Shown here: positions 60 to 35,129 of the stretch, piece after piece
How the letters are laid out: the number at the start of each line of letters is the position of its first letter
Position numbering within the stretch: position 1 is the stretch's first letter
IMG/VR virus record: IMGVR_UViG_2563366956_000015
Span: 1-35,129 of that record
Reading direction: 5' to 3' (one strand)
Length of the DNA stretch: 35,129 nucleotides
Origin: a virus
Taxonomy: Duplodnaviria; Heunggongvirae; Uroviricota; Caudoviricetes
Position numbers and translations under genes: made by a program
The notes under the pieces: generated by a model
Told to the model about the DNA's origin: nothing
The model's database searches: none
What the model saw: the letters and a program-made list of their open reading frames with translations, nothing else

Positions 60-85
60 AAGAAAAAAGGCCGCAGAGCGGCCAT
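60..85 (-). terminator. Rho-independent terminator (GC hairpin GGCCGC/GCGGCC followed by a U-run on the minus strand), downstream of the int operon
   Basis: Plus strand shows an A-run then GGCCGC-aga-GCGGCC; on the minus strand this reads as a hairpin followed by a T-run. Confidence 0.5.
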
Positions 86-585: not shown

Positions 586-595
586 AACATCCTCC

Positions 596-4049: not shown

Positions 4050-4312
4050 CCATTCTGGACTACATCGCTACTCATCCGGGTTGTAGCGGCGGAGAGATCG
4101 CCGCAGCACTGAATACTCCAACCACAGCCATTAATGCTGAGTTACGCCAACTTTGGCGCGGCGGCTTAGTCATCAGAACAAACCGCAGCACAGGTGGTCG
4201 CGCTCGCAAAACTGGAGGCCAGGCTTCTTACCACGTAAACCCGATGCCGTTCGGGTGTAGCAATCCACTTACTCACATGTTTAACCAGCTACTGAAGGAA
4301 GCCAGAACATGA
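4046..4312 (+). CDS. putative winged-helix DNA-binding protein
   Basis: ATGA overlap with the upstream gene; N-terminal MTILDYIATHPGCSGGEIAAALNTPTTAINAELRQLWRGGLV resembles a wHTH fold. Confidence 0.5.
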   Translation: MTILDYIATHPGCSGGEIAAALNTPTTAINAELRQLWRGGLVIRTNRSTGGRARKTGGQASYHVNPMPFGCSNPLTHMFNQLLKEART

Positions 4313-4608
4313 GCACCATCAACCACCAGAAGCTACGCGAACTGGCATTTGCCCTGCAACGAATGGCAACGCCTCAAAAATTACTGGCGTTTCGCGCAAT
4401 GCTCTCGCCGTCTGCTGTGCTGGCACTGCTGGATGAGCTGGAGCACGCCAGAACCACGGCTCCTGCCATTCGCCTGACACTCCATCATGAAATCGCTGAT
4501 TTCTGCGCGACGTTGGAGGCACCAGGCGAACCGGAAACGCCGGAAGCAATACAGCAAGAGCTGCTGCAACGCATTGACAAGGTTTTTGATTTTTTTCTGA
4601 ACCAGTAA
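4309..4608 (+). CDS. Ea22-like protein (short paralog)
   Basis: Shares the SPSAVLALLDELE motif with the larger Ea22-like ORF at 11003..11542. Confidence 0.5.
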   Translation: MSTINHQKLRELAFALQRMATPQKLLAFRAMLSPSAVLALLDELEHARTTAPAIRLTLHHEIADFCATLEAPGEPETPEAIQQELLQRIDKVFDFFLNQ

Positions 4609-4730
4609 GAAACCAGAACATGCACACACAAAAAAACCGCTTGCCATGCCGCAATCAGTCAGGTTACATTTCCGCTGCACCTCACAAAACGGGTGCCGGG
4701 TTTCGCAGCCTGCTGACTACACAAGCGCAC

Positions 4731-4752
4731 AACCGCGCCAGCGGTTTTTTTG
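4731..4752 (+). terminator. putative Rho-independent terminator (short GC stem plus T-run)
   Basis: AACCGC-gcca-GCGGTT followed by seven or more T, downstream of the 4309..4608 gene. Confidence 0.4.
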
Positions 4753-4930
4753 TGCGTACTGTATTGCCACGTTTTTTTCGCGTCAGAATTATGGCGGGGC
4801 GTACGGGGCCGACTTCGGTCGGGCCGGGTTCTTGTGTAGCCGGTACTGCGAACCTCGTACGTCTCGCCACCCACAGTTTCGCAGCTCTGGATGGTGAGTT
4901 TTCACAACTTACTACACAAGGAGCCACACC

Positions 4931-5161
4931 ATGGCAAACCGCAAACCACACCGCGCTATCGCGGAGTGTCGTCACATCCAGACTGAAATCAACCGCAGAC
5001 TTTCCCGCGCATCACGCGTCGCGCAAATCATGCACATCAATATGCTGCATGAGCGCAGCCACGCACTATCAAACATTTATTCCGCCTCTGTTTTCAGCTA
5101 TCTGGCGGATGATCTGCGCGAGCTGCAACAACTCTTCCAGCAGCAAAACAAACTCCATTAA
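4931..5161 (+). CDS. hypothetical early protein
   Basis: AGGAG RBS 8 nt upstream of the ATG; 76 aa. Confidence 0.55.
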   Translation: MANRKPHRAIAECRHIQTEINRRLSRASRVAQIMHINMLHERSHALSNIYSASVFSYLADDLRELQQLFQQQNKLH

Positions 5162-5233
5162 TTCCTGTTCCGGGCCTTTCCTGCACCTTGCGGCGGGAGG
5201 CCTTCGCACATCTGTAGTAAAGAGAATTGCAGC

Positions 5234-5623
5234 ATGATTGACGCTCATGACTTCACAAGATGGGTGCGCACACAGGACACCCGTCTGGCTCCCGTTCTTC
5301 AGGGATTATTTGATCTCTACATCCGTGGTCGTGACAACAGAGCACGCACCACAAAACCGGAGAATGCAGACACCCTTTATTTCACAGTAGACGACTGCTA
5401 CCGCGTGGACTTCACACCACACGGGCTGGCGTTGCACTGCCTGACACCACACGGAGAATCACTGCTGGCGTATTACGACTCCCCGGCCTCCGTATTTGCG
5501 GCAATGCTGGCGCATCGCACTGCTGGCGGGTGTGCCTCGCTGAGTGAATACACCGCTGAATTTAACCGCCTTTCTGCCCTCTTCTCGCAGGAGTGGCAGC
5601 GCGTGACGGGATACCAGCCATGA
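5234..5623 (+). CDS. hypothetical early protein immediately upstream of A
   Basis: 129 aa ORF; its stop overlaps the A start (ATGA). Confidence 0.55.
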   Translation: MIDAHDFTRWVRTQDTRLAPVLQGLFDLYIRGRDNRARTTKPENADTLYFTVDDCYRVDFTPHGLALHCLTPHGESLLAYYDSPASVFAAMLAHRTAGGCASLSEYTAEFNRLSALFSQEWQRVTGYQP

Positions 5624-8460: not shown

Positions 8461-8504
8461 AGCGCGCATAAAACAGGCAAAAACGGGATTTCAGAATCCC
8501 GTAA
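8408..8504. promoter_or_regulatory. two copies of an 8-bp-arm palindrome (ACGGGATT-N4-AATCCCGT), candidate centromere/operator upstream of the parM-like gene
   Basis: Copies at 8410-8429 and 8483-8502, 73 bp apart; the first lies in the last codons of A, the second about 35 bp before the parM-like start. Confidence 0.5.
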
Positions 8505-8536
8505 ACGATTAATTAATCAACATAAGGAAAAGCGAC

Positions 8537-9496
8537 ATGAAAATTTGTATCGACGACGGCTCCACCAACATCAAGCTGGCATGGACTGAGAACGGCGAAC
8601 GCCGCAACGCCATCAGCCCGAACAGCTTCAAGTCGGAATGGTCTGCGCCGTTCGGTGGCACGCAGCCCGCGAATTACATGCTTGATGGCGTGCGCTATGG
8701 TTTTGATCCGGTCAGCGATCGCTTTGTCCAGACGACCGACACGCAATACCAGTACAGCGATGTGAATGTCATTGCCATTCATCACGCGCTGGTCAAATCA
8801 GGCATCACGCCACAGGAGGTGGATGTGGTTGTCACCCTGCCACTGAGCGAGTATTTCGACACAAACGCCCAGCCGGATATGACCAACATCAACCGCAAAA
8901 AAGCGAACGTTATGCGCCCGGTGGAGTACCAGAACGGCGAAGCATTCACTATCCGTAACGTGCGGGTTATGCCTGAATCCATTCCGGCTGGCTTTAAGGC
9001 GCTGGCTGACATGAGTCCGTTTGAATCCCTGCTGATTGTGGATTTAGGCGGAACCACGCTGGATGTGGCAAAGGTTCAGGGACAACTGGCAGGTATCAGC
9101 CAGGTGTTTTGCGATCCACACGTAGGCGTTTCTCTGATGGCCGATGCCGTGCTGTCGGTGATGGCCACTAACGGTATGCGCACCAGTCACCACATCGCCA
9201 ATACCATTATCGAACATCGCCATGATGAAGCCTGGCTGCGCCAGCACATCCACAATGACGCACATTACAACAGCCTGATGGCGGTTATTCGTGAAAAGGA
9301 AGAAACACTGAAACAACGTGTACTCCGCGCGCTGGCGAGCTTTTCGGGTTACGGGCGGGTGATGGTTGTCGGTGGAGGGGCGGAGATTGTGGCACCCGCT
9401 GTCCGCGAAGCCTGCGGAGTTAATGCGACTTTTATCGCGGACGGGGTGCCACAGTTTGCTCTGGTTAATGGTCTCCACGCCATGAACAGGGAATAG
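8537..9496 (+). CDS. parM: actin-like segregation ATPase, ParM/StbA family
   Basis: N-terminal MKICIDDGSTNIKLAW, plus ISPNSFK, YSDVNV..HHAL, VMPESIPAG, DLGGTTLDV and VGGGAE blocks, all match plasmid R1 ParM as I recall it. Confidence 0.85.
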   Translation: MKICIDDGSTNIKLAWTENGERRNAISPNSFKSEWSAPFGGTQPANYMLDGVRYGFDPVSDRFVQTTDTQYQYSDVNVIAIHHALVKSGITPQEVDVVVTLPLSEYFDTNAQPDMTNINRKKANVMRPVEYQNGEAFTIRNVRVMPESIPAGFKALADMSPFESLLIVDLGGTTLDVAKVQGQLAGISQVFCDPHVGVSLMADAVLSVMATNGMRTSHHIANTIIEHRHDEAWLRQHIHNDAHYNSLMAVIREKEETLKQRVLRALASFSGYGRVMVVGGGAEIVAPAVREACGVNATFIADGVPQFALVNGLHAMNRE

Positions 9497-9499
9497 ATC

Positions 9500-9811
9500 A
9501 TGACGACATCAACCAGACGGATAAGTTTCTATCTGAAGCCAGCCGCAGTCAAGAACGAAAGCGAAGCGTGTGCCTGGCTGGACAGTCTTACACCAGAAGC
9601 CCGCAAAAGCGGCCAGCGTGTGGCTTTTCTGGCCGGACTGGCGCTTCTGAAGAAGAATCCGGCAGAGGCTTACCGGCTGGCTGCATGGGCTGACGATGAG
9701 CCGTTACCCGTGACACAGGTCTGTGCGGAAAAAACCAAAACACAGGCTGCGCCAGAGGCTCAGACAACCAGCCAGATGGCCGCAAACATCAGGGCGTTAT
9801 TCCCCGAATAA
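9500..9811 (+). CDS. parR: ParR-like partition adaptor/repressor (putative)
   Basis: Directly downstream of the parM-like gene; about 100 aa; RISFYLKP, LAGLALL and C-terminal RALFPE resemble R1 ParR features from memory. Confidence 0.55.
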   Translation: MTTSTRRISFYLKPAAVKNESEACAWLDSLTPEARKSGQRVAFLAGLALLKKNPAEAYRLAAWADDEPLPVTQVCAEKTKTQAAPEAQTTSQMAANIRALFPE

Positions 9812-10099: not shown

Positions 10100-10432
10100 A
10101 TGACCACAGCATACTCTGCAATGACCCCGGAAAAAGCACTCCATCTGATAGAACGACTGGAGGCGCTCGCCACAGAGGAAGAAATCTCCCCGGAGAAACT
10201 GGTTGAGTGCTGCCGTGTGATGTTGCGTCGCAAGGACGACATTGCGCGGCTGACATCCTACACATCATCCGTATCTGTCAGGCGAACGATTTATTGCAGC
10301 TTCTGCAAGAAACCACAGCACGCCGTCAAAAAGCTAATTGCCGGGGACGACGTTTTCATCTGCGACGAGTGTGTGGAAGCGTGCAACAGAGCTATCCGGG
10401 AAGAGCAAGAAAAGCGGGGAGTAAGAGGATGA
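10100..10432 (+). CDS. protein with a C-terminal ClpX-type C4 zinc-finger domain
   Basis: [35 protein letters not shown] matches the ClpX N-terminal zinc-binding motif (CSFCGK...LIAG...ICDECV). Confidence 0.6.
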
Positions 10433-10496
10433 ATGACGAATTTGACGGCTTTTAATTTTATCGGGGCGCACTGTCGCCCCGCACGAGGAAAACACG

Positions 10497-11006
10497 ATGA
10501 CAAAAGATGAATATCTGTTCATGACGAACGCGTTGCGGGTTGGTCTGGCCCCCTGCCCTGTCTCCGTGGAGTCTGTTGTCGGGAACACGATTTTTCGAAC
10601 ACTGCGCGATCGTGTCTCCGTGAAAATGATTCATCCGCTACCCAAAACCGCCAGCATGATCTATCTGCCGTTGCCCGACGCGATCCGGCTCATGCGTTCG
10701 CTGAAATTTGCGATTTGGATGCAGACACAACTCAACAAAGCAGTACAAAACACCTTCGTTAAGAGATTGATGCCAGAGCTTGCCGCCAGATGCGCAAAAT
10801 GCACCAGACCAGCACTTCACTTTGATCTGTCGTTGATTCAACGCGCTGCCGAATCCGAGTTCTACCGACTTGCCTTTCTCCGTCATGCGCGACATGAGGA
10901 CAAAGAGATACGCCGCCTTTTGAATCTGTTTGTTTTTTCCGTTCGACGCACACGCGTTCAGGTCAATCGCATGATGCAGGCGCAGGACAAAGGAGGCAAT
11001 CAGTGA
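10497..11006 (+). CDS. hypothetical protein (169 aa)
   Basis: ORF in the accessory island; no family recognised. Confidence 0.5.
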   Translation: MTKDEYLFMTNALRVGLAPCPVSVESVVGNTIFRTLRDRVSVKMIHPLPKTASMIYLPLPDAIRLMRSLKFAIWMQTQLNKAVQNTFVKRLMPELAARCAKCTRPALHFDLSLIQRAAESEFYRLAFLRHARHEDKEIRRLLNLFVFSVRRTRVQVNRMMQAQDKGGNQ

Positions 11007-11542
11007 GCGGGATTGACTATCAGGCACTGCGTGAAGCGGCAGAGCAGGCAATACATGATGACTGGGGATATGATGCGGATATTTTCCATGAACAGGTGAC
11101 ACCATCGGTTGTGCTGGCGTTGCTGGATGAGAATGAAAGAATGTGCCGCAACCTCATCGCCCGCAATGGTGAGATTGAAGGGCTTCGAAGGCGGGCTGCT
11201 GAACTGGAAAAAATCGCCACTGACTATGCACTGAAATTCCAGAAAGCACAGGATGCACTAAAGTACGCCGTGTTAATGCGTAACAAAGCGCTTTCTTTTG
11301 AAGAGGCGATGCAATGTACAAAAGAAAAATACGAGGGAGTCATAAAAAAACTTGCCAAAAACGAGCATCCAGTCTCACCAATACCAAAACCAGAGAATGA
11401 CAAATTTACTGTATCGATCCCGGACCCAAAGGAGTATTTCATTAACGGCGTATTCCAGCCTTTGCGGTACGAAAGAGATGTTGAACGAGCCATCATAAAG
11501 GCTGGCGGAAAAGTCTCGTGGCAGGAGGCGGAAGATAATTAG
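11003..11542 (+). CDS. Ea22-like protein
   Basis: TPSVVLALLDENE motif and coiled-coil-like middle region; ATGA-type overlap with the upstream gene. Confidence 0.55.
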   Translation: MSGIDYQALREAAEQAIHDDWGYDADIFHEQVTPSVVLALLDENERMCRNLIARNGEIEGLRRRAAELEKIATDYALKFQKAQDALKYAVLMRNKALSFEEAMQCTKEKYEGVIKKLAKNEHPVSPIPKPENDKFTVSIPDPKEYFINGVFQPLRYERDVERAIIKAGGKVSWQEAEDN

Positions 11543-26020: not shown

Positions 26021-26125
26021 TTCAGTAAGCCCCCCCTGCAGGAGCAGACTGGAGTTTCTCCCACATATCCTCATCACACCATTGAAAGCCTGCAGGAAAC
26101 TCAATTCTTTCAGGCAGCTTCAGAA
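26021..26125 (-). pseudogene. remnant of a tail protein U-like 3' end (direct repeat of the 3' end of the intact U gene)
   Basis: About 100 nt closely matching 27146-27250 in the same orientation; encodes a ...QxCDEDMxExLQSAxAG... fragment on the minus strand. Confidence 0.4.
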
Positions 26126-26289
26126 AATTATAAATTTCACCAGATACAATATGTAAGAGATTAATATGATGCACTCAAGAACATAAAACAGGCAATATTA
26201 ACTCCGGGACTGTATGTGTTAGAAAAAGAAGCACAAAGTAATCTGGTTTCCTCTGAAGGCGATAAAACTGACATAACGAAGCAGGGACC

Positions 26290-26735
26290 TTTCGACCAGA
26301 TAAAATCAAAATGATTTACAACGAAATAATATTATTGTCACCATTACCAGAGAGGCATCAACACTTAATCATGTCGGTTTTAGTGTTGTTAATACTTCTG
26401 ATATTAACGCTAACCAACGTGCTGATGACTCAGGTAACTGGATATTTGATGATGAAAATATTGTTCGTCATGTGCTGCCACCTGAAAAGTGGCAGGCTAA
26501 AGCAGAATGACAACGAAATCCCCTGCTGCCGGAGGCAAAAGAGAGGATCAGAATCTGGCAATCTGAGTTATTGCCCGGCACCATCAGCAATGCAGACAAG
26601 GGAAGGTTGGCTACGTGGATTGAATATATTAGGGAACTTCAGCAGTTGACGTTCACTTCCGTGATGAATAAAGATTGTTATAATGCGCTGGTATGGCCTG
26701 AATCTCCATCAAAGGGGACTTTTCAGAACGCATAA
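26290..26735 (+). pseudogene. degenerate, frameshifted tail fibre assembly (tfa-like) gene remnant
   Basis: Three frames each carry protein-like segments; the C-terminal piece ...ATWIEYIRELQQLTFTSVMNKDCYNALVWPESPS resembles the Tfa C-terminal W..Y...L....WP..P pattern. Confidence 0.4.
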
Positions 26736-26779
26736 TATATTTATAATCCCGCACTGTTCTACACATGCAAACATTCTTT

Positions 26780-26804
26780 GCCCGCCCCGTGCGGGCTTTT
26801 TTTT
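26780..26804 (+). terminator. Rho-independent terminator (GCCCGC-cccgt-GCGGGC plus T8)
   Basis: Perfect 6-bp GC stem followed by eight T; just downstream of the tfa-like remnant. Confidence 0.65.
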
Positions 26805-26967
26805 GCCGCAAAGACACAGTAATAAACGGGATTGTAATCAGAGCAACAAAAACACAAGAAACATTTTCATTAATGATAATGACAATTAAAAATATTGCAT
26901 TGAATGAATACCGTTCAATATAATCCCCCTGCAAGCAGAAAAATTAAATCTTCACACAATGCATGCC

Positions 26968-26990
26968 GCCCTCTTTGTGAGGGCTTTTTT
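26968..26990 (+). terminator. Rho-independent terminator (GCCCTC-tttgt-GAGGGC plus T-run)
   Basis: Perfect 6-bp stem followed by TTTTTT. Confidence 0.6.
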
Positions 26991-27083
26991 ATTTCCCGAA
27001 TATCACCATTGCCTTCATCGGGCGATTTATATATAGTCAGAATGTATTGACAACATTTGCTTCTTTTCCATGAAGGCAATAAG

Positions 27084-27112
27084 GGAGTGCTTTTTACACT
27101 CCCTCTTTTTTT
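27084..27112 (+). terminator. Rho-independent terminator (GGGAGTG hairpin plus T-run), possibly bidirectional at the 3' end of U
   Basis: GGGAGTG-cttttta-CACTCCC followed by TCTTTTTTT; the stop codon of minus-strand U is adjacent. Confidence 0.55.
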
Positions 27113-27114
27113 AT

Positions 27115-27573
27115 TCAGAATGCCGCTATCGCCATTTTGTCTTTAAGCGTGTTCAGTAAATCACCTGCAGAAGCAGACTGAAGCCTCTCCCGCATATCCT
27201 CATCACACCGCTGAAAGCTGATGGAGAACTCAATCTTTTTTGCCTTCCCGTAGCGATCCAGTTCGGAGCGGGTGGTCTGTAATCCCGTAATCACGTACAT
27301 TCCGTAAATCTGCCCCGTACCATCAATCAGCGGCCAGGGACATCCGGTGTAGGCCTGGGTGTTCAGCAGTGTCAGCGACACCTCACCGCCGGTAATTTCC
27401 GGGTACAGCAGACCGGACAGCGTGATCTGGTCGTCACCTGCGCCAATATACTGCCAGGCCGCAGAACGGTTGATTCGCTCATTTTTCACATGCCGCCACG
27501 TTTTGTTTTGTTGAATCTGTTGATGCGGCAGCGTTTTCAGTTCAAACACAAACATGCCAAAAATCATCATCAT
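27115..27573 (-). CDS. U: tail protein U (P2 gpU-like)
   Basis: MMMIFGMFVFELKTLPHQQIQQNKTWRHV resembles the P2 U N-terminus as recalled; follows T on the same strand. Confidence 0.8.
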   Translation of the reverse strand: MMMIFGMFVFELKTLPHQQIQQNKTWRHVKNERINRSAAWQYIGAGDDQITLSGLLYPEITGGEVSLTLLNTQAYTGCPWPLIDGTGQIYGMYVITGLQTTRSELDRYGKAKKIEFSISFQRCDEDMRERLQSASAGDLLNTLKDKMAIAAF

Positions 27574-27586: not shown

Positions 27587-30500
27587 TTAGTCCCTGTCAC
27601 GGAAGCTGTTCATGCCTGTACGCACCTGTCTGCGCATCTCTTCGCGGACAGCCTCGCCAACCAGTTTTGCCAGTTCACGCGGATTCTGCGTGTTGACGTT
27701 GTGCAGATGCACGTGTATCTCACCGGAAAATACCGCAGCCTGCGTTTGTGGCGCGGTTTCTTTTTTGACGGACTCCGGTCGCAGCGGTGGACGGATAACC
27801 TCCGCAACAGGAACAGATAAAGCCACATCTCCACCCGGACTGTTCACAGCCTCACGCACACGCTGAATACCGGCAACCAGCTCTGTATTTGCCTCGTTGT
27901 GCTGCGGCAGCGTGGACACCTGACGGGCCACGCTCACCACTGGCGCAGGAACATTCACTGCTGGCATCAGAACGTTCACCACAGGTGGAGGCGATACCGT
28001 CTCTCCACCCGGACTGTTCACCGCCTCATGCACACGCTGAATACCGGCAACCAGTTCTGTATTTGCCTCGTTGTGCTGCGGCAGCGTGGATACCTGACGC
28101 GCCACACTCACCACTGGCGCAGGAATATTCACGACCGGAACGGGTGAAGCAGTCTGTCTTCCGGTGAGTTTCTGCCAGAGCGTTGTCAGCGCATCCGCCA
28201 GTCCTCCGCCCGCCGATACCGCCTGCACTGTCCGGATAACCTGCGGTGCTTTCCACTCGCCGTGAATGATTTCGGGTCCGGGCAGGTTTTTGAAAACAAT
28301 ATCGCCGGGACCAGTACGTTTTTTGGTTTCCTCAAGCAGCCCGCCGGTGTTGCTGGCGGTTTTCTGTATCCCCTGCCGGAACCATGCCTCATCCAGCGGG
28401 GATTTACTACCGGGTTTGCCGACCGGATTGTCTGACGTTCCCTTCACCTCTCCGGGAACCGCAGGGGCAGGTATTGCGGGTTTATTGTCACCGTTGTTTT
28501 CCGCTGCATCTGATGACCACGACCATGTTTTCTGCACCATTTTTTTCTGTGCAGGATCCCACTCCCACGCAACCGGCGCTTTTTGTGTGGCCTGTTTTGC
28601 GGCGCTCTCCTGGAGTTTTTGCGTCTCCTTCTGCGCTTCCCTGATGCCATCCGGGATAACACCCAGCCACTTCAGCACTGTGCCGAGGCCATCAAGAAGC
28701 AGTGTCAGCGGCCCCAGCACAATGTTCTGAATGACCCACCCCAGCGTTTTCCCGAACGACTCCCCGGCGCTGGTGCATTTGTCGAGTGTCTCTTTTGAGG
28801 CGTTTGCAGGTTCAAGCAGGCGGGTGAACCATTCCCACACGGCTTTGATGCCATCGCCAATCAGCCCGAACACCGGAGCCAGCGACGCAAAGGCTTCCCG
28901 CAGCGGTTGCAGCGCCTCCCACACTCCGGCAAAAAAGCCGGAAAAAAACGCACTGATCTGATCCCAGTATTTCCACACCAGAACCGCGCCGCCCACCAGG
29001 GCGGCAACAATCAGCCCGACCGGGCTGAACAGCGCCCCCAGTGCACCACCCAGTACCGACACCGCCCCCGTGACCAGCCCCCACAGCGCAGGCAGCCCCG
29101 TCAGGCGCAGTGCCATCGCAGACACAAGCCGGACAGCACCACCAATGCCGCCGCCCCCCGTCAGCAGCCCCAGCCCCAGTTGCAGTTTTGCCAGCGGCCC
29201 CGCAATCAGCCCGAGCGTCAGTGACAGCGCACCGAACGTGGAAGACAGCGCCAGAACACTCCCGCCCGCCAGTACCAGCACCCTGACCAGCGCCTGATGC
29301 TCTCCGACCCATTCGCGCATCCGGGTCACCCACGCGCTCACCGTCTGAACCAGCCCGCGCAAATCCTCGGTCACAGTACCGAAGATGTCCGTGCGTAGCC
29401 CTGAGAACGCACCACTCAGCGCCTGAATATCGCCGGAGAGATTACCGCGCAGCGTCTGCCCCATGCGGTCTGCCACGCCGGTGACATCGCCCAGATTGTC
29501 ACGAACATCAGCCAGCGCCCTCAGGAACTGCGGGATCTGGTCAACGGAAAGGTCTTCAACGGGGGTGCCGAATAACGCAATGGCCGTGTTCGCCCGCTCT
29601 GCCGGGTCACGGATGGCCAGCAGTGCACGGGCGGTCACCTGCATCGCCTGGCGTGCGGTACTGCCCCCCTGAGCAATGGCAGCAGACACCCGTTCGGCAT
29701 TCAGGCCGAGTGTCTCATACGCTGAAACACTGGATTTCGACATATCCGAACCACGGATACTGAACTCCTTCACGGCATCGCCGGTTTTGTCCAGCGCAAA
29801 CTTGCCCTGCTTTGCCATCTCAACCAGCAGACTCATTGTCTCGCTGCCGGTGAAGCCCATGTTGCGGAAGTGGGTGGAATACTCATGCAGAATTTCCGGC
29901 AGTTCATCGCGCATTTCAGCGGACATGCGCTGCATCCCTGCCGTCATCAGGTTAGTAGCCTCGTCACTGCTGGCGGCCAGCCCGTTCTTCATCATGATGG
30001 CAGCGGCCTGAATGCTCTGCGGCACATCAACACCAAAGACGGTCCGCATATCCAGCGCACGACGGCTGATGCGCTCCAGTTCCCGGTCGCCGGTGTCGCC
30101 CAGCGCGCCGAGCGTACTGCGTACCGCACTCACAGCCTCCGCAGCACCGGCAAAATCAGCGAGACCGTCAGCCTGTATGTTACGGATGATGTGGGTGTAA
30201 CGTGCGCCATCCTGTGGGGCTTCCCCTGAACCGGCAGCAATGACCGCGCCGTGCTGTTCGGACTCCATCGCCGGAACCATCATGCGCTGCGCCGCATACA
30301 GGCCGCCTGTACCCGCCGCCATCGCCACAGCCCCTGTGTTGCGCAGTTTTTCCGCCTGTGCCTTCGCGGCCTCATAGCGGCTCTGTGCCTGCGTCACGCG
30401 AGCCAGTGCCTGCCGTTCGCGCTCGAGCTGCTCGTTGTACTGCTGTGTACGGCGAACGGCACTTTCGATGGTGCGGCTGCTGCCGGAAAGCAGAATGCCG

Positions 30501-30907
30501 TGTTTGCGCATTTCGCCTGCCGCCGCCTGGAGTTTTTCGCGCTCGCGCGTGCGCAGCTCGTTCAGGCGCTCAAGACGTGCAGACAGCGCCGTCATCATCT
30601 CCCGCTGCTTTTTGGAGAGAGTGTTACCGTCCTGCTCTGCCTTTCGCAGCCCGGCGAGCCTCTGCTCCGCGCGGGCAATCTGTTCGCGGTATTTACTGAG
30701 ATTTCCGGCGGCACGATCGAACACCTTCGACTGTCTGTCGAGCGCCTGTATGTTGTTCTGCGTCTTCTGAAGGGATTCAGTGAGAGCGCCCACCTGACGG
30801 CGGGCGTTTTCGGTCGGGCGTGTCAGCCGGTCAATTGCGCCAAAGCTGACACGAATATCAAGGGATTTCACTGTTGCGGACTCCGCTACGTTGCGCCGCC
30901 CGCTCAC
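27587..30907 (-). CDS. T: tail tape measure protein (P2 gpT-like), 1106 aa with an internal tandem repeat
   Basis: Long coiled-coil-rich N-terminal region, Gly/Ala-rich TM-like central region; position between E and U. Confidence 0.9.
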   Translation of the reverse strand: MSGRRNVAESATVKSLDIRVSFGAIDRLTRPTENARRQVGALTESLQKTQNNIQALDRQSKVFDRAAGNLSKYREQIARAEQRLAGLRKAEQDGNTLSKKQREMMTALSARLERLNELRTREREKLQAAAGEMRKHGILLSGSSRTIESAVRRTQQYNEQLERERQALARVTQAQSRYEAAKAQAEKLRNTGAVAMAAGTGGLYAAQRMMVPAMESEQHGAVIAAGSGEAPQDGARYTHIIRNIQADGLADFAGAAEAVSAVRSTLGALGDTGDRELERISRRALDMRTVFGVDVPQSIQAAAIMMKNGLAASSDEATNLMTAGMQRMSAEMRDELPEILHEYSTHFRNMGFTGSETMSLLVEMAKQGKFALDKTGDAVKEFSIRGSDMSKSSVSAYETLGLNAERVSAAIAQGGSTARQAMQVTARALLAIRDPAERANTAIALFGTPVEDLSVDQIPQFLRALADVRDNLGDVTGVADRMGQTLRGNLSGDIQALSGAFSGLRTDIFGTVTEDLRGLVQTVSAWVTRMREWVGEHQALVRVLVLAGGSVLALSSTFGALSLTLGLIAGPLAKLQLGLGLLTGGGGIGGAVRLVSAMALRLTGLPALWGLVTGAVSVLGGALGALFSPVGLIVAALVGGAVLVWKYWDQISAFFSGFFAGVWEALQPLREAFASLAPVFGLIGDGIKAVWEWFTRLLEPANASKETLDKCTSAGESFGKTLGWVIQNIVLGPLTLLLDGLGTVLKWLGVIPDGIREAQKETQKLQESAAKQATQKAPVAWEWDPAQKKMVQKTWSWSSDAAENNGDNKPAIPAPAVPGEVKGTSDNPVGKPGSKSPLDEAWFRQGIQKTASNTGGLLEETKKRTGPGDIVFKNLPGPEIIHGEWKAPQVIRTVQAVSAGGGLADALTTLWQKLTGRQTASPVPVVNIPAPVVSVARQVSTLPQHNEANTELVAGIQRVHEAVNSPGGETVSPPPVVNVLMPAVNVPAPVVSVARQVSTLPQHNEANTELVAGIQRVREAVNSPGGDVALSVPVAEVIRPPLRPESVKKETAPQTQAAVFSGEIHVHLHNVNTQNPRELAKLVGEAVREEMRRQVRTGMNSFRDRD
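27845..28190. repeat. two tandem copies of a repeat of about 174 bp inside the tape measure gene
   Basis: Near-identical DNA blocks encode the repeated peptide ...APVVSVARQVSTLPQHNEANTELVAGIQRV(H/R)EAVNSPGG...; also visible as repeated peptides in the plus-strand shadow ORF 27889..28167. Confidence 0.7.
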
Positions 30908-31438
30908 GCCAGCTCATCACCTCGACGAGAGGCATTGAGAATATCTCGCCGGGCGACCAGTTAAACACGACTGCTATATCAGCGACCAGTTCTTCAACGT
31001 TGTCGAACTTCGCCAGCGTGATTACGCTTCCATCACCGCCACGGACGGTTTCGCAGACTCCGTGGGAGCAAAAAAATTCGCAGCCATAGTCGCCAGCGCC
31101 ACGAAATCACCGGTGGACAGTGACTGAATTTCTGCCAGTTTCAGGCGTGGTGCGGTCACGCGCGAAAGCAGCGTCATCATCGGGTCCGTTTTGAGGTTCA
31201 GCACCTCAATCAGAGACAGCCCGCGCAGTGAACCTGCCTGACGGATTTCCTCGCCAATCTCCACGTAGTCAATAACGCGTTCGCCACGCACCACCGGGCA
31301 GGATAACTTCACCCCCGTTTTTTCCTCTGCGGCTTCTGCGTTATCTACGGTGTTTTCCTCTGCCACATCGATGTTTTCAGTGGTGGTGTCACCTGCGACG
31401 ATTTCGCTGTTCATGATGTCATCTTTCTTTGCTGCCAT
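30858..31438 (-). CDS. predicted E+E' product from a programmed -1 frameshift at a T7G slippery run
   Basis: Minus-strand GAATTTTTTTGC near 31068-31079; the -1 frame continues as ...DGSVITLAKFDNVEELVADIAVVFNWSPGEIFSMPLVEVMSWRERAA... to a stop at 30858-30860, overlapping the T start. Confidence 0.5.
31022..31438 (-). CDS. E: tail assembly chaperone E (P2 gpE-like)
   Basis: GGAG RBS; acidic N-terminus; sits between FII and T. Confidence 0.75.
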   Translation of the reverse strand: MAAKKDDIMNSEIVAGDTTTENIDVAEENTVDNAEAAEEKTGVKLSCPVVRGERVIDYVEIGEEIRQAGSLRGLSLIEVLNLKTDPMMTLLSRVTAPRLKLAEIQSLSTGDFVALATMAANFFAPTESAKPSVAVMEA

Positions 31439-31483
31439 TTTCTTTCTCCTGTGGCGGCACGGCGTGCCGCCCTGTTAATACTG

Positions 31484-31999
31484 TCAGTTCAGGCCAAGTG
31501 CCGAACTCACGCGGTCGCCAAAGACGTTCTGGCCGTCTTTTTTGTAGATGAAGTTCAGCAGGTCGATTTCTGTCACATCGCTGTCATCCACCGACTCCTT
31601 GTAGTAGGTGTTTTTGACGGCGAAGGTGTACTGCGTGGTGTCGCCCTGTTTGGTTTCGCCACGGTCGATTTCCGTGATGCGTCCGCGCATTTCCACCTCA
31701 AGGATCTGACTTTCCTCACCATCGGTGAACAGCTCACCCACAAAGCGCAGCGCCACTTCGTTAATGTCAGTGGCGTATTCCTGGAGCAGCTCTTTTTCAA
31801 CCCCACCGGTGGTGAACGAGGCATCCAGTGCGCCGTCATCCAGTCCGAGGTCAATATGCACCGCACCCAGCATCCCGCCGCCGCGATAGGCTTCGGTTTT
31901 TCGGGTCAGTTTGGGCAGACTGACGCCTGTCACTGTGCCGATTTTGTTTTTGCCGTTCACAAACAGCGTGAACTGGCGAACGTAACGTGGTACAGCCAT
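31484..31999 (-). CDS. FII: tail tube protein (P2 gpFII-like)
   Basis: 171 aa; follows the sheath gene. Confidence 0.85.
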   Translation of the reverse strand: MAVPRYVRQFTLFVNGKNKIGTVTGVSLPKLTRKTEAYRGGGMLGAVHIDLGLDDGALDASFTTGGVEKELLQEYATDINEVALRFVGELFTDGEESQILEVEMRGRITEIDRGETKQGDTTQYTFAVKNTYYKESVDDSDVTEIDLLNFIYKKDGQNVFGDRVSSALGLN

Positions 32000-33184
32000 T
32001 TACGCACCTCCCAGCGTTGCAAAAGCGGAGTCGAAATACTCATCCGTGAACGTCTGGTACAGCGTCAGGTCTTCCATCGGCGGCACTGGCGTGTACTTAT
32101 AACGGATGCGCACGCGCCCCTGACGTAAATCCGTCGTGCCGTTGTCCAGCACGTCATACCAGCACTCCGCACCGATGAGTTTTCCGGCGGTGACCAGGGC
32201 ATTGAGTTTTGCGCGGATGGCGCTAATCACGTCCTTCACGTTCGCCGGGGTCAGCGGTTCGTCAATGGTTTCGAACTGCGCTTCGGCGATGGTATCTGCC
32301 AGAATCTGCGCTGTGCGCGTGTACACCTCAAAGATGTAGTCGCTGGTTTCGGCAGTACGGTTCCCCCAGAAGCGGAAGCCGTTACGGCGAATAATCGTGG
32401 TGATTTCCTTGTTGTTCAGGTTATTCGCATCACTGTCTTCGGCCTGCAACGACCAGAACACCTGCTGCGACATACCGAGCACATTTTTCAGCGCCACGTT
32501 GGACAGTGACTTGTGCCAGCCCTGTTCACTGTCAATCCGCGCACGCAGCCCGCACGCATACGCTGCCGCCGGGAATACCTCATTCTCACCGCTCACGGGG
32601 TTGTAAGCGATGAAGTCGGGCCACAGCAGCATCAGCTCACGCGCGGAGAACTTCGCGCGGTAAGTGATTGCCTTCGCCATCGTGTCGCATCCGTTACATC
32701 CGGCATACACAAAGGCGCGGAGCTTGTCCGCAATGACGCACAGGGCGGATGTGACTGCTTCGGTATCAAGGCCGGGAGCCGCCAGAATACGCGGGCGGTA
32801 ACCAATGCTCTCGTCCTGTTCGGCAACCAGCAGGGCATACATGCCCGTATAGCTGCCGTCATCCTGTGAGCCACCGATGACAAGCTGGTCCTGTGTTTTT
32901 TCGCCCTCTTCTTCGGCTTCTGCCACACGCACCACGATGACCTTCGGGCTGGTCTGGTCGGAAATCGCCTTGAGCGTTTTGTACAGCGTGCCTGTTGTGC
33001 CTGCCTTACCCAGCACATTCGCCACGCGGGTGATCAATACGGGCTTGTTTAACGGGAACGCGTCGCTGTCTGCATCGTCCGCCGTGGCCACGATACCGAT
33101 GACACTGGAATCAATGTCATTAATCGCGGTCACGAGGTCGGTGTTTTCTTTGACGCGTGCACCGTGAAAGCGTGTTTCACTCAT
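32000..33184 (-). CDS. FI: contractile tail sheath protein (P2 gpFI-like)
   Basis: ORF trimmed to the internal ATG (MSETRFHGARVKEN...); about 394 aa. Confidence 0.85.
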   Translation of the reverse strand: MSETRFHGARVKENTDLVTAINDIDSSVIGIVATADDADSDAFPLNKPVLITRVANVLGKAGTTGTLYKTLKAISDQTSPKVIVVRVAEAEEEGEKTQDQLVIGGSQDDGSYTGMYALLVAEQDESIGYRPRILAAPGLDTEAVTSALCVIADKLRAFVYAGCNGCDTMAKAITYRAKFSARELMLLWPDFIAYNPVSGENEVFPAAAYACGLRARIDSEQGWHKSLSNVALKNVLGMSQQVFWSLQAEDSDANNLNNKEITTIIRRNGFRFWGNRTAETSDYIFEVYTRTAQILADTIAEAQFETIDEPLTPANVKDVISAIRAKLNALVTAGKLIGAECWYDVLDNGTTDLRQGRVRIRYKYTPVPPMEDLTLYQTFTDEYFDSAFATLGGA

Positions 33185-33250
33185 GAGCACCTCCTGGTGT
33201 TTTGTGTGGCGACATCCTCCCGAAAAACAGCCCCGCATTCACGCGCTGCC

Positions 33251-33274
33251 TGTTCTCGCCGCTCTCCGACAACA
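33251..33274 (+). promoter_or_regulatory. late-promoter activator-site-like dyad in the FI/D divergent region
   Basis: TGTTCTCGCCGCTCTCCGACAACA, nearly identical to the motif at 14837-14860. Confidence 0.45.
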
Positions 33275-33346
33275 TACGCAGGATTACAGCGTCTCCGTGC
33301 GCGTGGGAGTATTTCGCCGTACGAAGACACAGACGGAGAAATTGCG

Positions 33347-34462
33347 ATGAACCCTGCGGACGTAAGCGGATACCTGAACGGTCTGTCAGAGTGCGTGAAG
33401 ATCCCTGATTTTTCCATCACGGTTAAGGGCACGGAAAACGCGGCGCTGACCCGACGGGTCATCTCGCTGGCGATGACCGACAACCGGGGATTTGAGGCGG
33501 ACCAGTTAACCCTCACGATTGACGACTGCGACGGCGGTGTGCAACTCCCGAAGCGCGGACAGACGCTGGGTCTGGCGCTGGGCTGGAAAGGTGAGGCGCT
33601 GACAGACAAGGGAACCTTCATCGTTGACGAGGTGACACATGAGGGACCACCGGACAGGCTCACCATCACGGCCAGCAGCGCAGACTTCCGGCAGGAGTTC
33701 AACGTGAAGCGTGAAGTGTCCTGGCATGACGTGACGGTGGGACAGGTTGTTTCTGCCATCGCGTACCGCTACGGACTGAAGGCACAAATCAGCGCCTCGC
33801 TGGCAGAGGTGGAAATCGACCACGCCGACCAGACGGAGGAAAGTGACATCTCGTTTCTCACGCGCATGGCGGACATGCTGGGAGCCATCGCCACCGTCAA
33901 AAACGGCGCCCTGCTTTTCATCGTGCCCGGACAGGGGGTGAGCGCCAGCGGAAAGCCGCTGCCCTCATTCGCCATCACCCGCAGCAGCGGCGACAGCCAT
34001 CACTTCCGCATTGCAGACCGGCAGGCGTACACGGGGGTACGCGCTTACTGGCTGGACCTGGACTATGGCAAAAAGAAAAAAGTCAGCGTGACAAAACGTG
34101 GTTCTGCCCAAAAAACAAAAAAGGAGAAAAGCAGCAGCCGCGAGGGGGATTACATGGAGGGCGCAGACGGCAATGTGTACGTCATGCGTAAAACCTTCAA
34201 AAACGAGGAGGCCGCACGCCGTGCAGCGGCGGCAAAATGGCAGCAGCTACAGCGCGGCGCGGCTGAGTTCTCCATCACGCTGGCACGCGGTCGCCCCGAC
34301 CTGTACCCCGAAATGCGCGGCACGGTATCCGGTTTCAAGAGTGACATCGACGCGGAGGACTGGGTACTGGCGAAGGTGGAGCACAACATCGACGACAGCG
34401 GCTTCACCACGCGGCTTGAGCTGGAATTAAAAATTCCTGAATGGATAGCGAAACAGGAATAA
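33347..34462 (+). CDS. D: tail protein D (P2 gpD-like, late control/tail gene)
   Basis: ORF trimmed to the ATG at 33347 (MNPADVSGYLNG...); 371 aa; precedes ogr. Confidence 0.85.
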   Translation: MNPADVSGYLNGLSECVKIPDFSITVKGTENAALTRRVISLAMTDNRGFEADQLTLTIDDCDGGVQLPKRGQTLGLALGWKGEALTDKGTFIVDEVTHEGPPDRLTITASSADFRQEFNVKREVSWHDVTVGQVVSAIAYRYGLKAQISASLAEVEIDHADQTEESDISFLTRMADMLGAIATVKNGALLFIVPGQGVSASGKPLPSFAITRSSGDSHHFRIADRQAYTGVRAYWLDLDYGKKKKVSVTKRGSAQKTKKEKSSSREGDYMEGADGNVYVMRKTFKNEEAARRAAAAKWQQLQRGAAEFSITLARGRPDLYPEMRGTVSGFKSDIDAEDWVLAKVEHNIDDSGFTTRLELELKIPEWIAKQE

Positions 34463-34513
34463 CAGGAATAAAATCACGGCGATTCACCTTCATGAAAAAA
34501 GGAGGTCTCCGTC

Positions 34514-34771
34514 ATGTCTTTTCCGTGTCCTTTTTGTGGTGCTAGCACGCGCACCCGCACAAGCCGCGCCGCGAATGATTCGCGAACTGTCCGGCAGAAA
34601 CTCTACCAGTGCAACAACCCCGAATGCAGTCTCTCCTTCTCGACGCTGGAGAGCTTCGAAAAACTCACCGTAAAGCGCAGCGGTGGTACTTCACCGGATA
34701 TTCCGTGGCAGAGCCTGCCAGCGTCACACCGTGGTGATGCGCAGATGTCGCTGCCACTTCCGGCAATGTGA
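34514..34771 (+). CDS. ogr: Ogr/Delta-family zinc-finger late gene activator
   Basis: CPFCGASTRTRTSR...YQCNNPECSLSF Cys4 pattern typical of Ogr; GGAGG RBS; terminal position as in P2. Confidence 0.85.
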   Translation: MSFPCPFCGASTRTRTSRAANDSRTVRQKLYQCNNPECSLSFSTLESFEKLTVKRSGGTSPDIPWQSLPASHRGDAQMSLPLPAM

Positions 34772-34888
34772 TCGCCTGTATCTGTTTTTTGACTCTGGAA
34801 TTTTATTTGGAGAATTTACTCAGGAAACGGTAAATTACGCGCGGGTGCCTTTCGGCTGATGGTCGGAGGGAAAACCTGAAGGCCGGAT

Positions 34889-35122
34889 GTGGAAAGGCCC
34901 CGGAAAACATTTCTGTTTAACCGAGGCCCTGACCATCTAACCTTAGCAAGTGATAGGTTAGCGCCTCCCCGAAAAAGGAGCAAGCGCTATGTCGCAAAAA
35001 TCGCTTACGGCCATCACGTTCTGCGTGACGGCAATCCTCATCATCTGGATGCTGCACGGTTCGCTGTGCGAAATACGGATGAGCTTCTGGGGAGCGGAGT
35101 TTGCGGCGTTCTTACAGTGTAA
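34889..35122 (+). CDS. mok-like overlapping reading frame of the hok locus (putative)
   Basis: 77-aa ORF overlapping the hok-like gene in a different frame, as in hok/mok/sok loci; likely GTG start. Confidence 0.3.
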   Translation: MERPRKTFLFNRGPDHLTLASDRLAPPRKRSKRYVAKIAYGHHVLRDGNPHHLDAARFAVRNTDELLGSGVCGVLTV

Positions 35123-35129
35123 GCAGTAA
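34989..35129 (+). CDS. hok: Hok/Gef-family type I toxin (46 aa)
   Basis: AAGGAG RBS 9 nt upstream of the ATG; MSQKSLTAITFCVTAILIIWMLHGSLCEIR...EFAAF has the hydrophobic TM segment and SLCEIR motif of Hok/Gef peptides. Too short for the ORF track. Confidence 0.7.
   Translation: MSQKSLTAITFCVTAILIIWMLHGSLCEIRMSFWGAEFAAFLQCKQ

What the first reader, a model, noticed from the sequence alone, without database searches (positions are those of the whole stretch)
34772..35129. hok/mok-like type I toxin locus immediately beyond ogr
A 46-aa Hok/Gef-family toxin ORF with a good RBS ends exactly at the window edge, overlapped by a mok-like frame; the expected antisense Sok RNA would lie just upstream. 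It is either prophage cargo acting in post-segregational killing or defence, or the host flank marking the right boundary. Which one affects where attR lies.
Basis: partly seen in the sequence, partly recalled or inferred. Interest (0 to 1): 0.5.

Follow-up and report, generated by a model that had tools for sequence, protein, structure and literature searches.

The report
Prophage-borne Hok toxin–antisense RNA module
The last 300 bases of the window hold an ordinary, already catalogued Hok-family membrane-toxin gene, probably paired with an antisense RNA antidote, and it is cargo of the P2-like prophage rather than a host gene.

Summary
A 46-aa ORF (34989-35129) with an AAGGAG ribosome-binding site ends at the window edge. 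It passes Pfam's Hok/Gef threshold. A 77-codon overlapping frame (34889-35122) is also present.

The cargo-or-host question is settled: it is cargo. Window 1-83 is identical to the K-12 btuC-ihfA spacer and carries the att core, which is the ihfA terminator. A public contig identical to the window's last 5.8 kb continues for 260 nt of phage DNA after hok. It then reaches the same core and ihfA. attR therefore starts 261 nt beyond the window. 5118 of 5426 complete E. coli genomes have this site empty, with no hok.

The module has sharp borders and recurs at 83-97% identity in unrelated phages, including P88-like and Stx phages. The full mRNA shows the family's 5'-3' closure, a hairpin masking the ribosome-binding site, and compensatory base changes. 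A Sok-like RNA of about 60 nt with a conserved promoter-like site is predicted on the minus strand; its expression is unproven.

The mok-like frame is not conserved: it is broken in 21 of 41 variants. The exact protein is already annotated in more than 1000 contigs. This is known and of low interest.

The parts
60..83 (.). attL core (AAGAAAAAAGGCCGCAGAGCGGCC), which is the ihfA terminator. It marks the left prophage junction. Its partner at attR lies outside the window.
   Evidence: Window 1-83 is 100% identical to the K-12 btuC-ihfA spacer. The right-hand flank of relatives matches K-12 from the same 24-25 nt onward. The core occurs only once in the window.
34514..34771 (+). ogr, the last phage regulatory gene before the hok module.
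   Evidence: Pfam Ogr_Delta, 50.4 bits, E 2.1e-13.
34807..34836 (+). Predicted hok promoter: TTGGAG at 34807-34812, an 18-nt spacer, then TAAATT at 34831-34836.
   Evidence: A -10-like hexamer (TAAATT, TAGATT or TAGAAT) sits 6-7 nt before GGGTGCC in every genomic context examined. It is inferred only; the strict consensus scan reported no promoter.
34843..34853 (+). Predicted 5' end of hok mRNA (GGGUGCCUUUC), the counterpart of the R1 'tac' element. It pairs with the 3' fold-back element that lies outside the window.
   Evidence: The Rfam RF01794 match starts here. Folds of the extended mRNA pair it with GGUCGAUAAGGCACUC, 50-65 nt after the stop. That helix is paired in 98.7% of alignment cells.
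34889..35122 (+). mok-like overlapping frame: GTG start, 77 codons, in the same phase relative to hok as R1 mok.
   Evidence: Listed. No Pfam, NCBIfam or PHROG match. Intact with a start codon in only 20 of 41 distinct relatives.
34895..34927 (.). Conserved hairpin (GGCCCCGG...CCGAGGCC). It is the Sok-target stem in the mRNA and the terminator-like stem of the antisense RNA.
   Evidence: Fold of the minus strand gives -31.7 kcal/mol, z -3.96. The outer pair shows a compensatory GC to AU change in 4 sequences.
34889..34948 (-). Predicted Sok-like antisense RNA of about 60 nt. It has a 5' single-stranded tail, then the hairpin, then a UUUCC tail.
   Evidence: The position follows from the promoter-like site and the hairpin. 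Its 3' end matches by homology the annotated sokA remnant of K-12. Expression has not been shown.
34955..34983 (-). Predicted sok promoter: -35 TTGCTC (34983-34978), a 17-nt spacer, -10 TAACCT (34960-34955).
   Evidence: The same hexamers are present in all 41 distinct modules, with 17-nt spacing in 40. Variants are TATCCT, TTTACT and, in 933W, TTGACT with an 18-nt spacer. An R1-type plasmid has TTGCGC, 17 nt, TATCCT at the corresponding place. Each hexamer matches the consensus at only 3 of 6 positions, so the strict scan did not report it.
34959..34989 (+). Hairpin that pairs an anti-SD (UAGCGCCUCC) with the hok SD and the A of the start codon.
   Evidence: Consensus helices 7 and 8 are paired in 100% and 97.6% of cells. 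The hairpin is predicted to open when the 3' fold-back element is removed.
34975..34980 (+). hok Shine-Dalgarno sequence, AAGGAG.
   Evidence: Read. It lies 8 nt before the ATG.
34989..35129 (+). hok-family toxin gene, 46 aa. It encodes a hydrophobic N-terminal segment and the conserved GSLCEIR...AEFAAFLQCK tail.
   Evidence: Pfam HOK_GEF is above threshold and PHROG 251 matches. The SLCEIR and AAF motifs are shared with R1 Hok, and MxQK...W-M...SLCE...AAFL-CK with K-12 HokA. The subfamily alignment has 14 invariant columns.

Best explanation
This is a complete hok/sok-type type I toxin-antitoxin module carried as accessory cargo (a 'moron') at the right end of an integrated P2-like (P88-related) prophage. 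It lies between ogr and attR. The window cuts off its 3' untranslated region.

Shown here:
- The peptide belongs to the Hok/Gef family.
- The module lies inside the prophage.
- It is a discrete cassette shared by unrelated phages.
- Its roughly 405-nt mRNA has a conserved fold. The 5' end pairs with a 3' fold-back element, and the hok ribosome-binding site is locked in a hairpin.

Inferred by analogy with plasmid R1 hok/sok:
- The full-length mRNA is stable and translationally inert.
- Slow 3' trimming removes the fold-back element. The 5' end then re-pairs with GAAAGGCCCC, which opens the Sok-target hairpin and frees the ribosome-binding site.
- A short, unstable antisense RNA of about 60 nt (about 34948 to 34889, minus strand) binds the opened leader and blocks translation or triggers cleavage.
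- When antisense supply stops, through loss of the element, transcription shut-off or prophage induction, Hok is made, inserts in the inner membrane and depolarises or kills the cell.

The long mok frame is probably not required in this subfamily. The physiological payoff is not resolved by sequence. It could be prophage addiction, help with lysis at induction as reported for hokW-sokW of Sp5, or exclusion of other phages.
For: Family membership: Pfam HOK_GEF scores 29.9 against 22. PHROG 251 gives 1.3e-22. Motifs are shared with R1 Hok and K-12 HokA.

Cargo status:
- Window 1-83 equals the K-12 btuC-ihfA spacer, and the att core occurs once in the window.
- Contig L109 is 100% identical to window 29347-35129. 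It continues 260 nt, reaches the core, and is then identical to K-12 across ihfA.
- 5118 of 5426 complete E. coli genomes have the uninterrupted site.
- The same slot after ogr holds the module in phages P88, P88_4B11 and phiSM. P88 and phiSM are active phages that produce particles.

Cassette: homology with unrelated phages starts at 34825. It ends 68 nt after the stop (just past the fold-back element) or 130 nt after it (past the terminator).

RNA:
- The Rfam hok-leader model RF01794 matches 34843-35002 with E 7.8e-7.
- The full mRNA folds at -180.9 kcal/mol, z -7.5, with 5'-3' closure.
- In 41 distinct modules, 98.3% of cells are paired, against 34-48% in slid controls. 12 pairs show compensatory changes, against 1-5 in controls.
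- The truncated mRNA is predicted to refold and release the SD.
- The helix UUUC/GAAA shows compensatory changes.

Antisense RNA: a promoter-like site sits at a fixed position in all 41 modules. The hairpin has z -3.96.
Against: There is no expression or toxicity data for this subfamily. The published hokW-sokW work concerns a different 51-aa Hok.

The sok promoter hexamers are weak, each matching 3 of 6 positions, and the strict scan found no promoter. The antisense hairpin is followed by only UUUCC, so the terminator scan did not report it.

The Rfam score of 37.6 is below the gathering score of 59.

The mok frame, central to the R1 mechanism, is not conserved. How the antisense RNA would block hok translation 40-100 nt downstream is therefore inferred, not shown.

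The conservation of the promoter-like hexamers could equally reflect constraints on the mRNA fold on the other strand.

The switch helix between the 5' end and GGCCCC never varies, so it carries no covariation evidence.
Confidence: 0.85

Rival explanations
1. The hok locus is a host chromosomal gene that marks the right flank, with attR lying between ogr and hok.
For: Chromosomal hok loci do exist in E. coli, for example hokA in K-12. The window ends at hok, so the window alone could not exclude this.
Against: The K-12 btuC-ihfA spacer has no hok, and no part of 34772-35129 matches that K-12 region. The att core is absent from 34772-35129 and is found 261 nt after hok in an identical contig. 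5118 of 5426 genomes have the empty site. The module is present in the sequenced genomes of the active phages P88 and phiSM.
Confidence: 0.01
2. The locus is an inactive relic, like the IS-disrupted or mutated hok loci of K-12. It is carried passively and no longer makes toxin or antisense RNA.
For: Many chromosomal hok loci are decayed. hokA, mokA and sokA of K-12 are split by IS150. One Salmonella copy has an IS in its leader (L098). The mok frame is broken in half of the variants.
Against: The ORF, SD, leader fold, fold-back element and terminator are all intact in this element. The peptide is identical across at least 17 distinct coding sequences in different phage backgrounds. Those loci were chosen by protein identity, so this is only suggestive. 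RNA pairs are kept through compensatory changes.
Confidence: 0.07
3. The toxin gene is real, but there is no Sok-type antisense RNA. Expression is controlled only by the mRNA's own folding and 3' processing, or by a trans-acting factor.
For: The consensus scans found no promoter or terminator on the minus strand. The conserved hexamers overlap mRNA helices that are themselves under constraint.
Against: The layout matches R1-type and K-12 loci, where the antisense gene is annotated or known at the same place. A stable hairpin lies at the expected distance from the promoter-like site. The -35 varies towards the consensus (TTGACT in 933W) without losing position.
Confidence: 0.07
4. Rival for the physiological role: the module mainly helps the phage at induction by speeding lysis and release of progeny, rather than stabilising the prophage or excluding other phages.
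For: This role was reported for hokW-sokW of Stx prophage Sp5. There the antisense RNA disappears after mitomycin C, HokW appears in a RecA-dependent way, and phage release halves without the locus (PMC8621323).
Against: That locus encodes a different Hok (51 aa, beginning MKQQKAM and ending DYESEK, from the primers). Nothing in the sequence discriminates between the possible roles. The same P88-like phages also carry ParM/ParR plasmid-stability genes, which points towards maintenance.
Confidence: 0.3

Closest known systems
hok/sok (parB) of plasmid R1, the founding type I toxin-antitoxin system
   Same: Both have a small Hok-family membrane toxin with the SLCEIR...AAF motif. Both have a leader of about 150 nt beginning GG(G/C)(U/G)GC, a 5' end that pairs with a 3' fold-back element, and a promoter-like site on the opposite strand just upstream of the hok start. 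That site reads TTGCGC, 17 nt, TATCCT in an R1-type plasmid and TTGCTC, 17 nt, TAACCT here. A hairpin lies in the antisense-target region of both. The overlapping frame is in the same phase here as in R1.
   Different: Nucleotide identity is only about 39%. The peptide is 46 aa rather than 52 and carries a second Cys near the C-terminus. The mok frame is not conserved in this subfamily. The Rfam leader model scores below its gathering threshold. This subfamily is rare on plasmids, with 34 of 72,556 records, whereas R1-type Hok is found in at least 5000.
HokA of E. coli K-12 (hokA/mokA/sokA, NCBIfam NF007290)
   Same: It is the best NCBIfam match. Both share MxQK...W-M...SLCE...AAFL-CK, including the second Cys, and both have a GGGTGC 5' end with a matching GCACCC 3' element.
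   Different: The score of 34 bits is far below the equivalog cut-off of 89. The K-12 locus is chromosomal and split by IS150.
'MokW-like host killing' genes (PHROG 251) of phage P88, Xuanwuvirus P88_4B11, phiSM and Stx phages such as 933W
   Same: It is the same cassette, at 93-97% DNA identity in the P88-like phages (after ogr in P88, P88_4B11 and phiSM) and about 83% in the Stx phages (after lom in 933W). The peptide is identical or nearly so in the P88-like phages and about 72% identical in 933W.
   Different: The neighbouring ogr is only about 67% identical, so the cassette has been exchanged independently. These phages integrate elsewhere. P88 attP is reported as GCCACCCGAAGGTG.
hokW-sokW of Sakai prophage 5 (Takada et al. 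2021, PMC8621323)
   Same: [quoted passage not shown]
   Different: It is a different locus and peptide: 51 aa, beginning MKQQKAM and ending DYESEK, from the primers. The database label 'MokW-like' on the present gene should not be read as identity with it.

Membership tests
Hok/Gef toxin family (Pfam PF01848) | Whole-protein score at or above Pfam's gathering score. | tested here: met
   29.9 bits against 22. Residues 7-44 match profile positions 5-42 of 42.
Hok/Gef toxin family (Pfam PF01848) | A peptide of about 50 aa with a hydrophobic N-terminal segment and a conserved Cys-containing C-terminal motif. | tested here: met
   46 aa. The hydrophobic stretch is LTAITFCVTAILIIWML. GSLCEIR is identical to the KSLCEIR core of R1 Hok, whose sequence was confirmed at 100% in more than 2600 plasmids. 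There are 14 invariant columns across the subfamily.
Hok/Gef toxin family (Pfam PF01848) | Kills or arrests cells when expressed. | not testable with these tools
   Needs an induction experiment.
hok/sok-type type I toxin-antitoxin locus (R1 architecture) | Long-range pairing of the mRNA 5' end with a 3' fold-back element. | tested here: met
   Seen in folds of the extension that is identical to the window, and of a relative. That helix is paired in 98.7% of alignment cells, with only one-sided (G-U) changes. The element lies outside the window.
hok/sok-type type I toxin-antitoxin locus (R1 architecture) | A cis-encoded antisense RNA gene with its own promoter in the leader. | tested here: inconclusive
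   A promoter-like site is conserved in position in all 41 modules, and a stable hairpin follows it. The hexamers are weak, the strict scan was negative, and no transcript data exist.
hok/sok-type type I toxin-antitoxin locus (R1 architecture) | A conserved overlapping mok reading frame that couples translation to hok. | tested here: not met
   The frame is present in the window (34889-35122). It is interrupted or has no start codon in 21 of 41 distinct modules. It has no family match.
hok/sok-type type I toxin-antitoxin locus (R1 architecture) | 3' processing of the mRNA and RNase III cleavage of the duplex. | not testable with these tools
   Only a predicted refolding of the truncated mRNA is available.
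Rfam RF01794 ('sok') | Score at or above the family's gathering score. | tested here: not met
   37.6 bits against 59, E 7.8e-7, full-length match at 34843-35002 on the hok-sense strand.
NCBIfam NF007290 (HokA equivalog) | Score at or above the curated cut-off. | tested here: not met
   34 bits against 89.
Prophage accessory cargo (moron) | Lies between the att junctions, is absent from the unoccupied site, and is carried in phage genomes. | tested here: met
   attL core is at 60-83. The attR core starts 261 nt after hok in an identical contig. The site is empty in K-12 and in 5118 of 5426 genomes. The module is in the P88 and phiSM genomes.

The most novel reading that the evidence does not exclude
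This phage-borne, HokA-like 46-aa subfamily may work without mok. On this reading, 3' trimming alone re-pairs the 5' end with the Sok-target stem and frees the hok ribosome-binding site directly. The same P88-like prophages also carry a ParM/ParR partition system. The two R1-type stability modules together might therefore stabilise an extrachromosomal state of an otherwise integrating P2-like phage, either the excised circle or a plasmid-like carrier state.
Probability: 0.1. Interest if true: 0.45.

Novelty: already known. Interest (0 to 1): 0.12.

Why it matters
The main value is practical. The result fixes the right boundary of this prophage: attR is the ihfA terminator, 261-284 nt beyond the window. 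It also shows that boundary callers routinely clip the prophage at the hok stop codon, which removes the 3' regulatory part of the toxin mRNA.

Biologically it adds one more case of a Hok-type toxin cassette placed at a prophage end and exchanged between unrelated phages. Two modest open points remain. One is whether the subfamily needs mok at all. The other is why integrating P88-like phages carry both a partition system and a killer module.

Tried and rejected
- The strict sigma-70 and terminator scans of 34600-35129 found no promoter and only an irrelevant hairpin inside ogr. The promoter and terminator assignments therefore rest on comparison, not on the scan.
An alignment of 18 subfamily members was used instead.
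- PADLOC gave no hit for Hok or for the neighbouring cargo proteins.
- I first took the label 'MokW-like' to mean the published hokW-sokW system. The paper's primers show a different 51-aa peptide, so that equation was dropped.
- NCBIfam HokA and the Rfam sok model both fall below their curated thresholds.
- The short in-frame leader ORF (ATG at 34887, 17 codons) was considered as a mok substitute. It was rejected as a general feature because the Salmonella and Klebsiella copies lack the start codon.
- The all-synonymous variation among coding sequences for the identical protein is not used as evidence of selection. Those loci were picked by protein identity.
- The reported P88 attP motif was not found in the stretch fetched.
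- Literature searches found no paper on hok in P2-like phages.

Full report
**1. The observation**

The sequence is as described. ogr (Pfam Ogr_Delta, E 2.1e-13) ends at 34771. A 46-aa ORF occupies 34989-35129, and its TAA stop is the last three bases of the window. AAGGAG lies 8 nt before its ATG. A second frame is open from a GTG at 34889 to 35122.

The peptide scores 29.9 bits against Pfam HOK_GEF, whose gathering score is 22. It gives E 1.3e-22 against PHROG 251, labelled 'MokW-like host killing'. Its best NCBIfam match is HokA, at 34 bits against a cut-off of 89.

The exact 46-aa sequence is in the public protein collection on at least 1000 contigs (the count cap), under the name 'Hok/Gef family protein'. 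A search of 5.8 billion proteins found 67 clusters of relatives in E. coli, Shigella, Salmonella and Klebsiella, and all that are named carry that name. The 77-codon frame matches no family in Pfam, NCBIfam or PHROGs.

**2. Cargo or host flank, and the position of attR**

The window is a P2-like prophage. It has an integrase at 596-1720 (minus strand), the late gene D, and ogr. In P2-type prophages ogr lies next to one att junction; this is from my own knowledge of the P2 map.

Window 1-83 is 100% identical to the K-12 spacer between btuC and ihfA, starting at the first base after the btuC start codon. The Ogr protein of the window is encoded identically in many E. coli genomes. In the places shown the gene order is D, ogr, hok, about 300 nt, then ihfA, pheT and pheS on the opposite strand.

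The right flank of those relatives matches K-12 from the sequence AAGAAAAAAGGCCGCAGAGCGGCC onward. The same 24-25 nt sit at window 59/60-83. This duplicated core is the att site. It is the stem-loop and T-run of the ihfA terminator, which stays intact at attR. The core occurs only once in the window.

Looking up the window's own D protein retrieved contig L109. It is identical to window 29347-35129 at every base. A second contig, L108, differs at one base. After the hok stop both continue with 260 nt that are absent from K-12. They then reach the core at +261 to +284, and from the core onward L108 was checked and is identical to K-12 across ihfA.

attR therefore lies at what would be window coordinates 35390-35413, and hok is inside the prophage. 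Of 5426 complete E. coli genomes, 5118 have the 241-nt btuC-ihfA stretch uninterrupted and the rest have it split. The host-flank reading is refuted.

The window edge is an artefact of provirus trimming at gene ends. About 45 of the 80 related IMG/VR contigs end at the same stop codon.

**3. A discrete cassette shared among phages**

The module recurs in 198 phage records.
- Identity is 93-97% in the P88-like phages: P88, Xuanwuvirus P88_4B11, Citrobacter phage phiSM, Chuche, 500465-2 and 520873.
- In P88, P88_4B11 and phiSM the module sits in the same slot after ogr.
- Identity is about 83% in Stx phages. In 933W it lies after lom and is unannotated.
- It is present in 1699 of 5426 E. coli genomes but in only 34 of 72,556 plasmids. 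R1-type Hok, by contrast, is in at least 5000 plasmids.

The ogr gene next to it is only about 67% identical between the window and the P88-like phages, while the module is 94-97% identical. Homology with unrelated contexts begins at 34825, which is 18 nt before the predicted mRNA start. It ends either 68 nt after the stop or 130 nt after it. Those two end points fall just past the fold-back element and just past the terminator. The exchanged unit is therefore one whole transcription unit.

P88 and phiSM are active phages that produce particles, so relatives carry the module in functional phage genomes. A Salmonella P2-like prophage at ihfA has the same ogr-hok-att order with a Hok that is 61% identical.

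**4. The RNA anatomy**

*Leader model.* Rfam RF01794 ('sok') matches 34843-35002 over its full length, with E 7.8e-7 but 37.6 bits against a gathering score of 59. The model consensus runs from GGGUGCUUGAG to AUG and matched the hok-sense strand. In practice it describes the hok leader that contains the Sok-complementary region.

*Promoter and start.* A -10-like hexamer (TAAATT here, TAGATT or TAGAAT elsewhere) sits 6-7 nt before GGGTGCC in every context. This supports a start near 34843.

*Full-length fold.* The full transcript was taken from the identical contig (about 405 nt, ending at the terminator AAACCCGCAGCAUAAAAACUGCGGGUUUUCUUUUU). It folds at -180.9 kcal/mol with z -7.5. The 5' GGGUGCCUUUCGGCU pairs with GGUCGAUAAGGCACUC, 50-65 nt after the stop. 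A relative behaves the same way.

*Comparative support.* I aligned 41 distinct modules from E. coli phages, 933W, Salmonella and Klebsiella.
- In the consensus structure 98.3% of cells are paired, against 34-48% when partners are slid by 1-3 columns.
- 12 pairs have compensatory changes, against 1-5 in the slid controls.
- Conserved helices include the 5'-3' closure and the hairpin GGCCCCGG...CCGAGGCC (34895-34927), whose outer pair changes GC to AU in four sequences.
- A hairpin pairs UAGCGCCUCC with the hok SD and the A of the start codon (34959-34989).
- A long pairing joins the first codons to codons near the 3' end of hok.
- The 3' hairpin shows GC to CG and GC to AU changes.

*Predicted switch.* When the fold-back element is removed, the predicted fold changes. 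The 5' end pairs with GAAAGGCCCC (34892-34901). The target hairpin opens. Its 3' arm captures the anti-SD, and the SD is released. The UUUC/GAAA part of this switch helix has compensatory changes. The GGG-GCC/GGCCCC part never varies, so it is uninformative.

**5. The antisense RNA**

On the minus strand, TTGCTC (34983-34978), a 17-nt spacer and TAACCT (34960-34955) are present in all 41 modules, with 17-nt spacing in 40. Variants are TATCCT, TTTACT and, in 933W, TTGACT with an 18-nt spacer. An R1-type plasmid locus has TTGCGC, 17 nt, TATCCT at the corresponding place.

A transcript starting about 7 nt downstream would have three parts: a single-stranded tail of about 20 nt, the hairpin at 34927-34895, and a UUUCC tail. 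The fold gives -31.7 kcal/mol, z -3.96. The total length is about 60 nt. The sokA remnant annotated in K-12 ends at the homologous position.

This is a prediction. The hexamers are weak, the strict scan reported nothing, and the same bases are constrained by the mRNA fold.

**6. The mok-like frame**

The frame has the same phase relative to hok as R1 mok. An uninterrupted frame with a start codon at -100 or -103 is found in 20 of 41 distinct modules. In the other 21 a stop intervenes or no start exists. That group includes L011 (a close relative with an identical Ogr protein), P88, P88_4B11, 933W and every Salmonella and Klebsiella copy. The frame is therefore unlikely to be an essential part of this subfamily. 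The defining mok feature of the R1 architecture is not met.

**7. Mechanism and role**

The best-supported reading is a hok/sok-type type I toxin-antitoxin module (confidence about 0.85).
- Shown: family membership of the peptide, cargo status, the conserved mRNA fold, and the 5'-3' closure.
- Inferred from R1: mRNA stability, activation by 3' trimming, an unstable antisense RNA, and membrane killing.

The role cannot be read from sequence. The only prophage-borne hok/sok tested so far is hokW-sokW of Sp5. It speeds lysis and doubles phage release after induction (PMC8621323). It encodes a different 51-aa Hok. The R1 locus is reported there to reduce T4 plating. Addiction to the prophage follows directly from the mechanism.

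**8. Comparison and verdict**

This is a member of the Hok/Gef family. It belongs to a phage-borne subfamily most like HokA. It shows most but not all hallmarks of the R1 locus. The exact protein and the cassette are already in public records with the correct family name. Novelty: already known. Interest: low.

The useful outcomes are the placement of attR, the demonstration that the window truncates the module, and the correction regarding mok.

Noticed in passing
window 8394-9811: The prophage encodes a ParM/StbA actin-like segregation ATPase (8537-9496; PF06406 E 2.8e-82, PF21523 E 4.4e-68) and a ParR/StbB-like 'plasmid stability protein' (9500-9811; PF10784 E 4.9e-23). Two 42-nt direct repeats with internal palindromes (8394-8435 and 8467-8508) precede them and could be a parC-like centromere. 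ParM at 93-98% identity is found in 14 records of P88-like phages and at 48% in phage D6. An integrating P2-like phage thus carries both R1-type stability modules.
   Followed up: partly
L096-L098 (Salmonella contigs), about 3000-5600: Two to three hok-family modules of this subfamily lie in tandem, 360-700 nt apart, next to DUF4875/DUF1131 genes. In L098 an IS (rve transposase) sits between two copies and replaces the leader of the last one.
   Followed up: no
window 35129, and about 45 of the 80 loci L016-L095: Many IMG/VR viral contigs end exactly at the stop codon of this hok gene. Provirus trimming at gene ends systematically removes the fold-back element, the terminator and attR.
   Followed up: yes
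window 34843-35002: The Rfam family called 'sok' (RF01794) has a consensus that runs from the hok mRNA 5' end to an AUG. It matched the hok-sense strand. Its hits therefore mark the hok leader, not the strand of the antisense RNA.
   Followed up: partly
window 34400-35129 compared with L001-L003: There is a mosaic joint. The hok module is 94-97% identical to P88-like phages while the adjacent D-ogr stretch is about 67-68% identical. Several viral contigs share the hok-to-attR/ihfA right flank but differ upstream of 34825.
   Followed up: partly
window 190-606 (minus strand): A 138-aa ORF lies between attL and the integrase gene. It has no Pfam or PADLOC match and is a second possible cargo gene at the other prophage end.
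   Followed up: partly
window 160-200, and L108 about 5990-6020: Similar motifs lie on both sides of the att core: ATGTGGTCACTTTGTGGAT near attL and ATGTGGACACATCGTGGAA near attR. They may be integrase arm-type sites (read).
   Followed up: no
window 27797-28132 and 26035-27239: A 162-nt direct repeat (86% identical, 174 nt apart) lies inside the tape-measure gene. A 76-nt repeat pair (79% identical) is spaced 1129 nt apart at 26035 and 27164.
   Followed up: no
L100-L102 (Salmonella): A Salmonella P2-like prophage also sits next to ihfA with the order U, D, ogr, hok, ihfA. Its Hok is only 61% identical, so the ogr-hok-att arrangement at this site is kept across genera.
   Followed up: no
window 10100-11542: Further accessory-looking genes lie in the early region: a protein with a ClpX-type C4 zinc finger (10100-10432) and an Ead/Ea22-like protein (11003-11542).
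   Followed up: no
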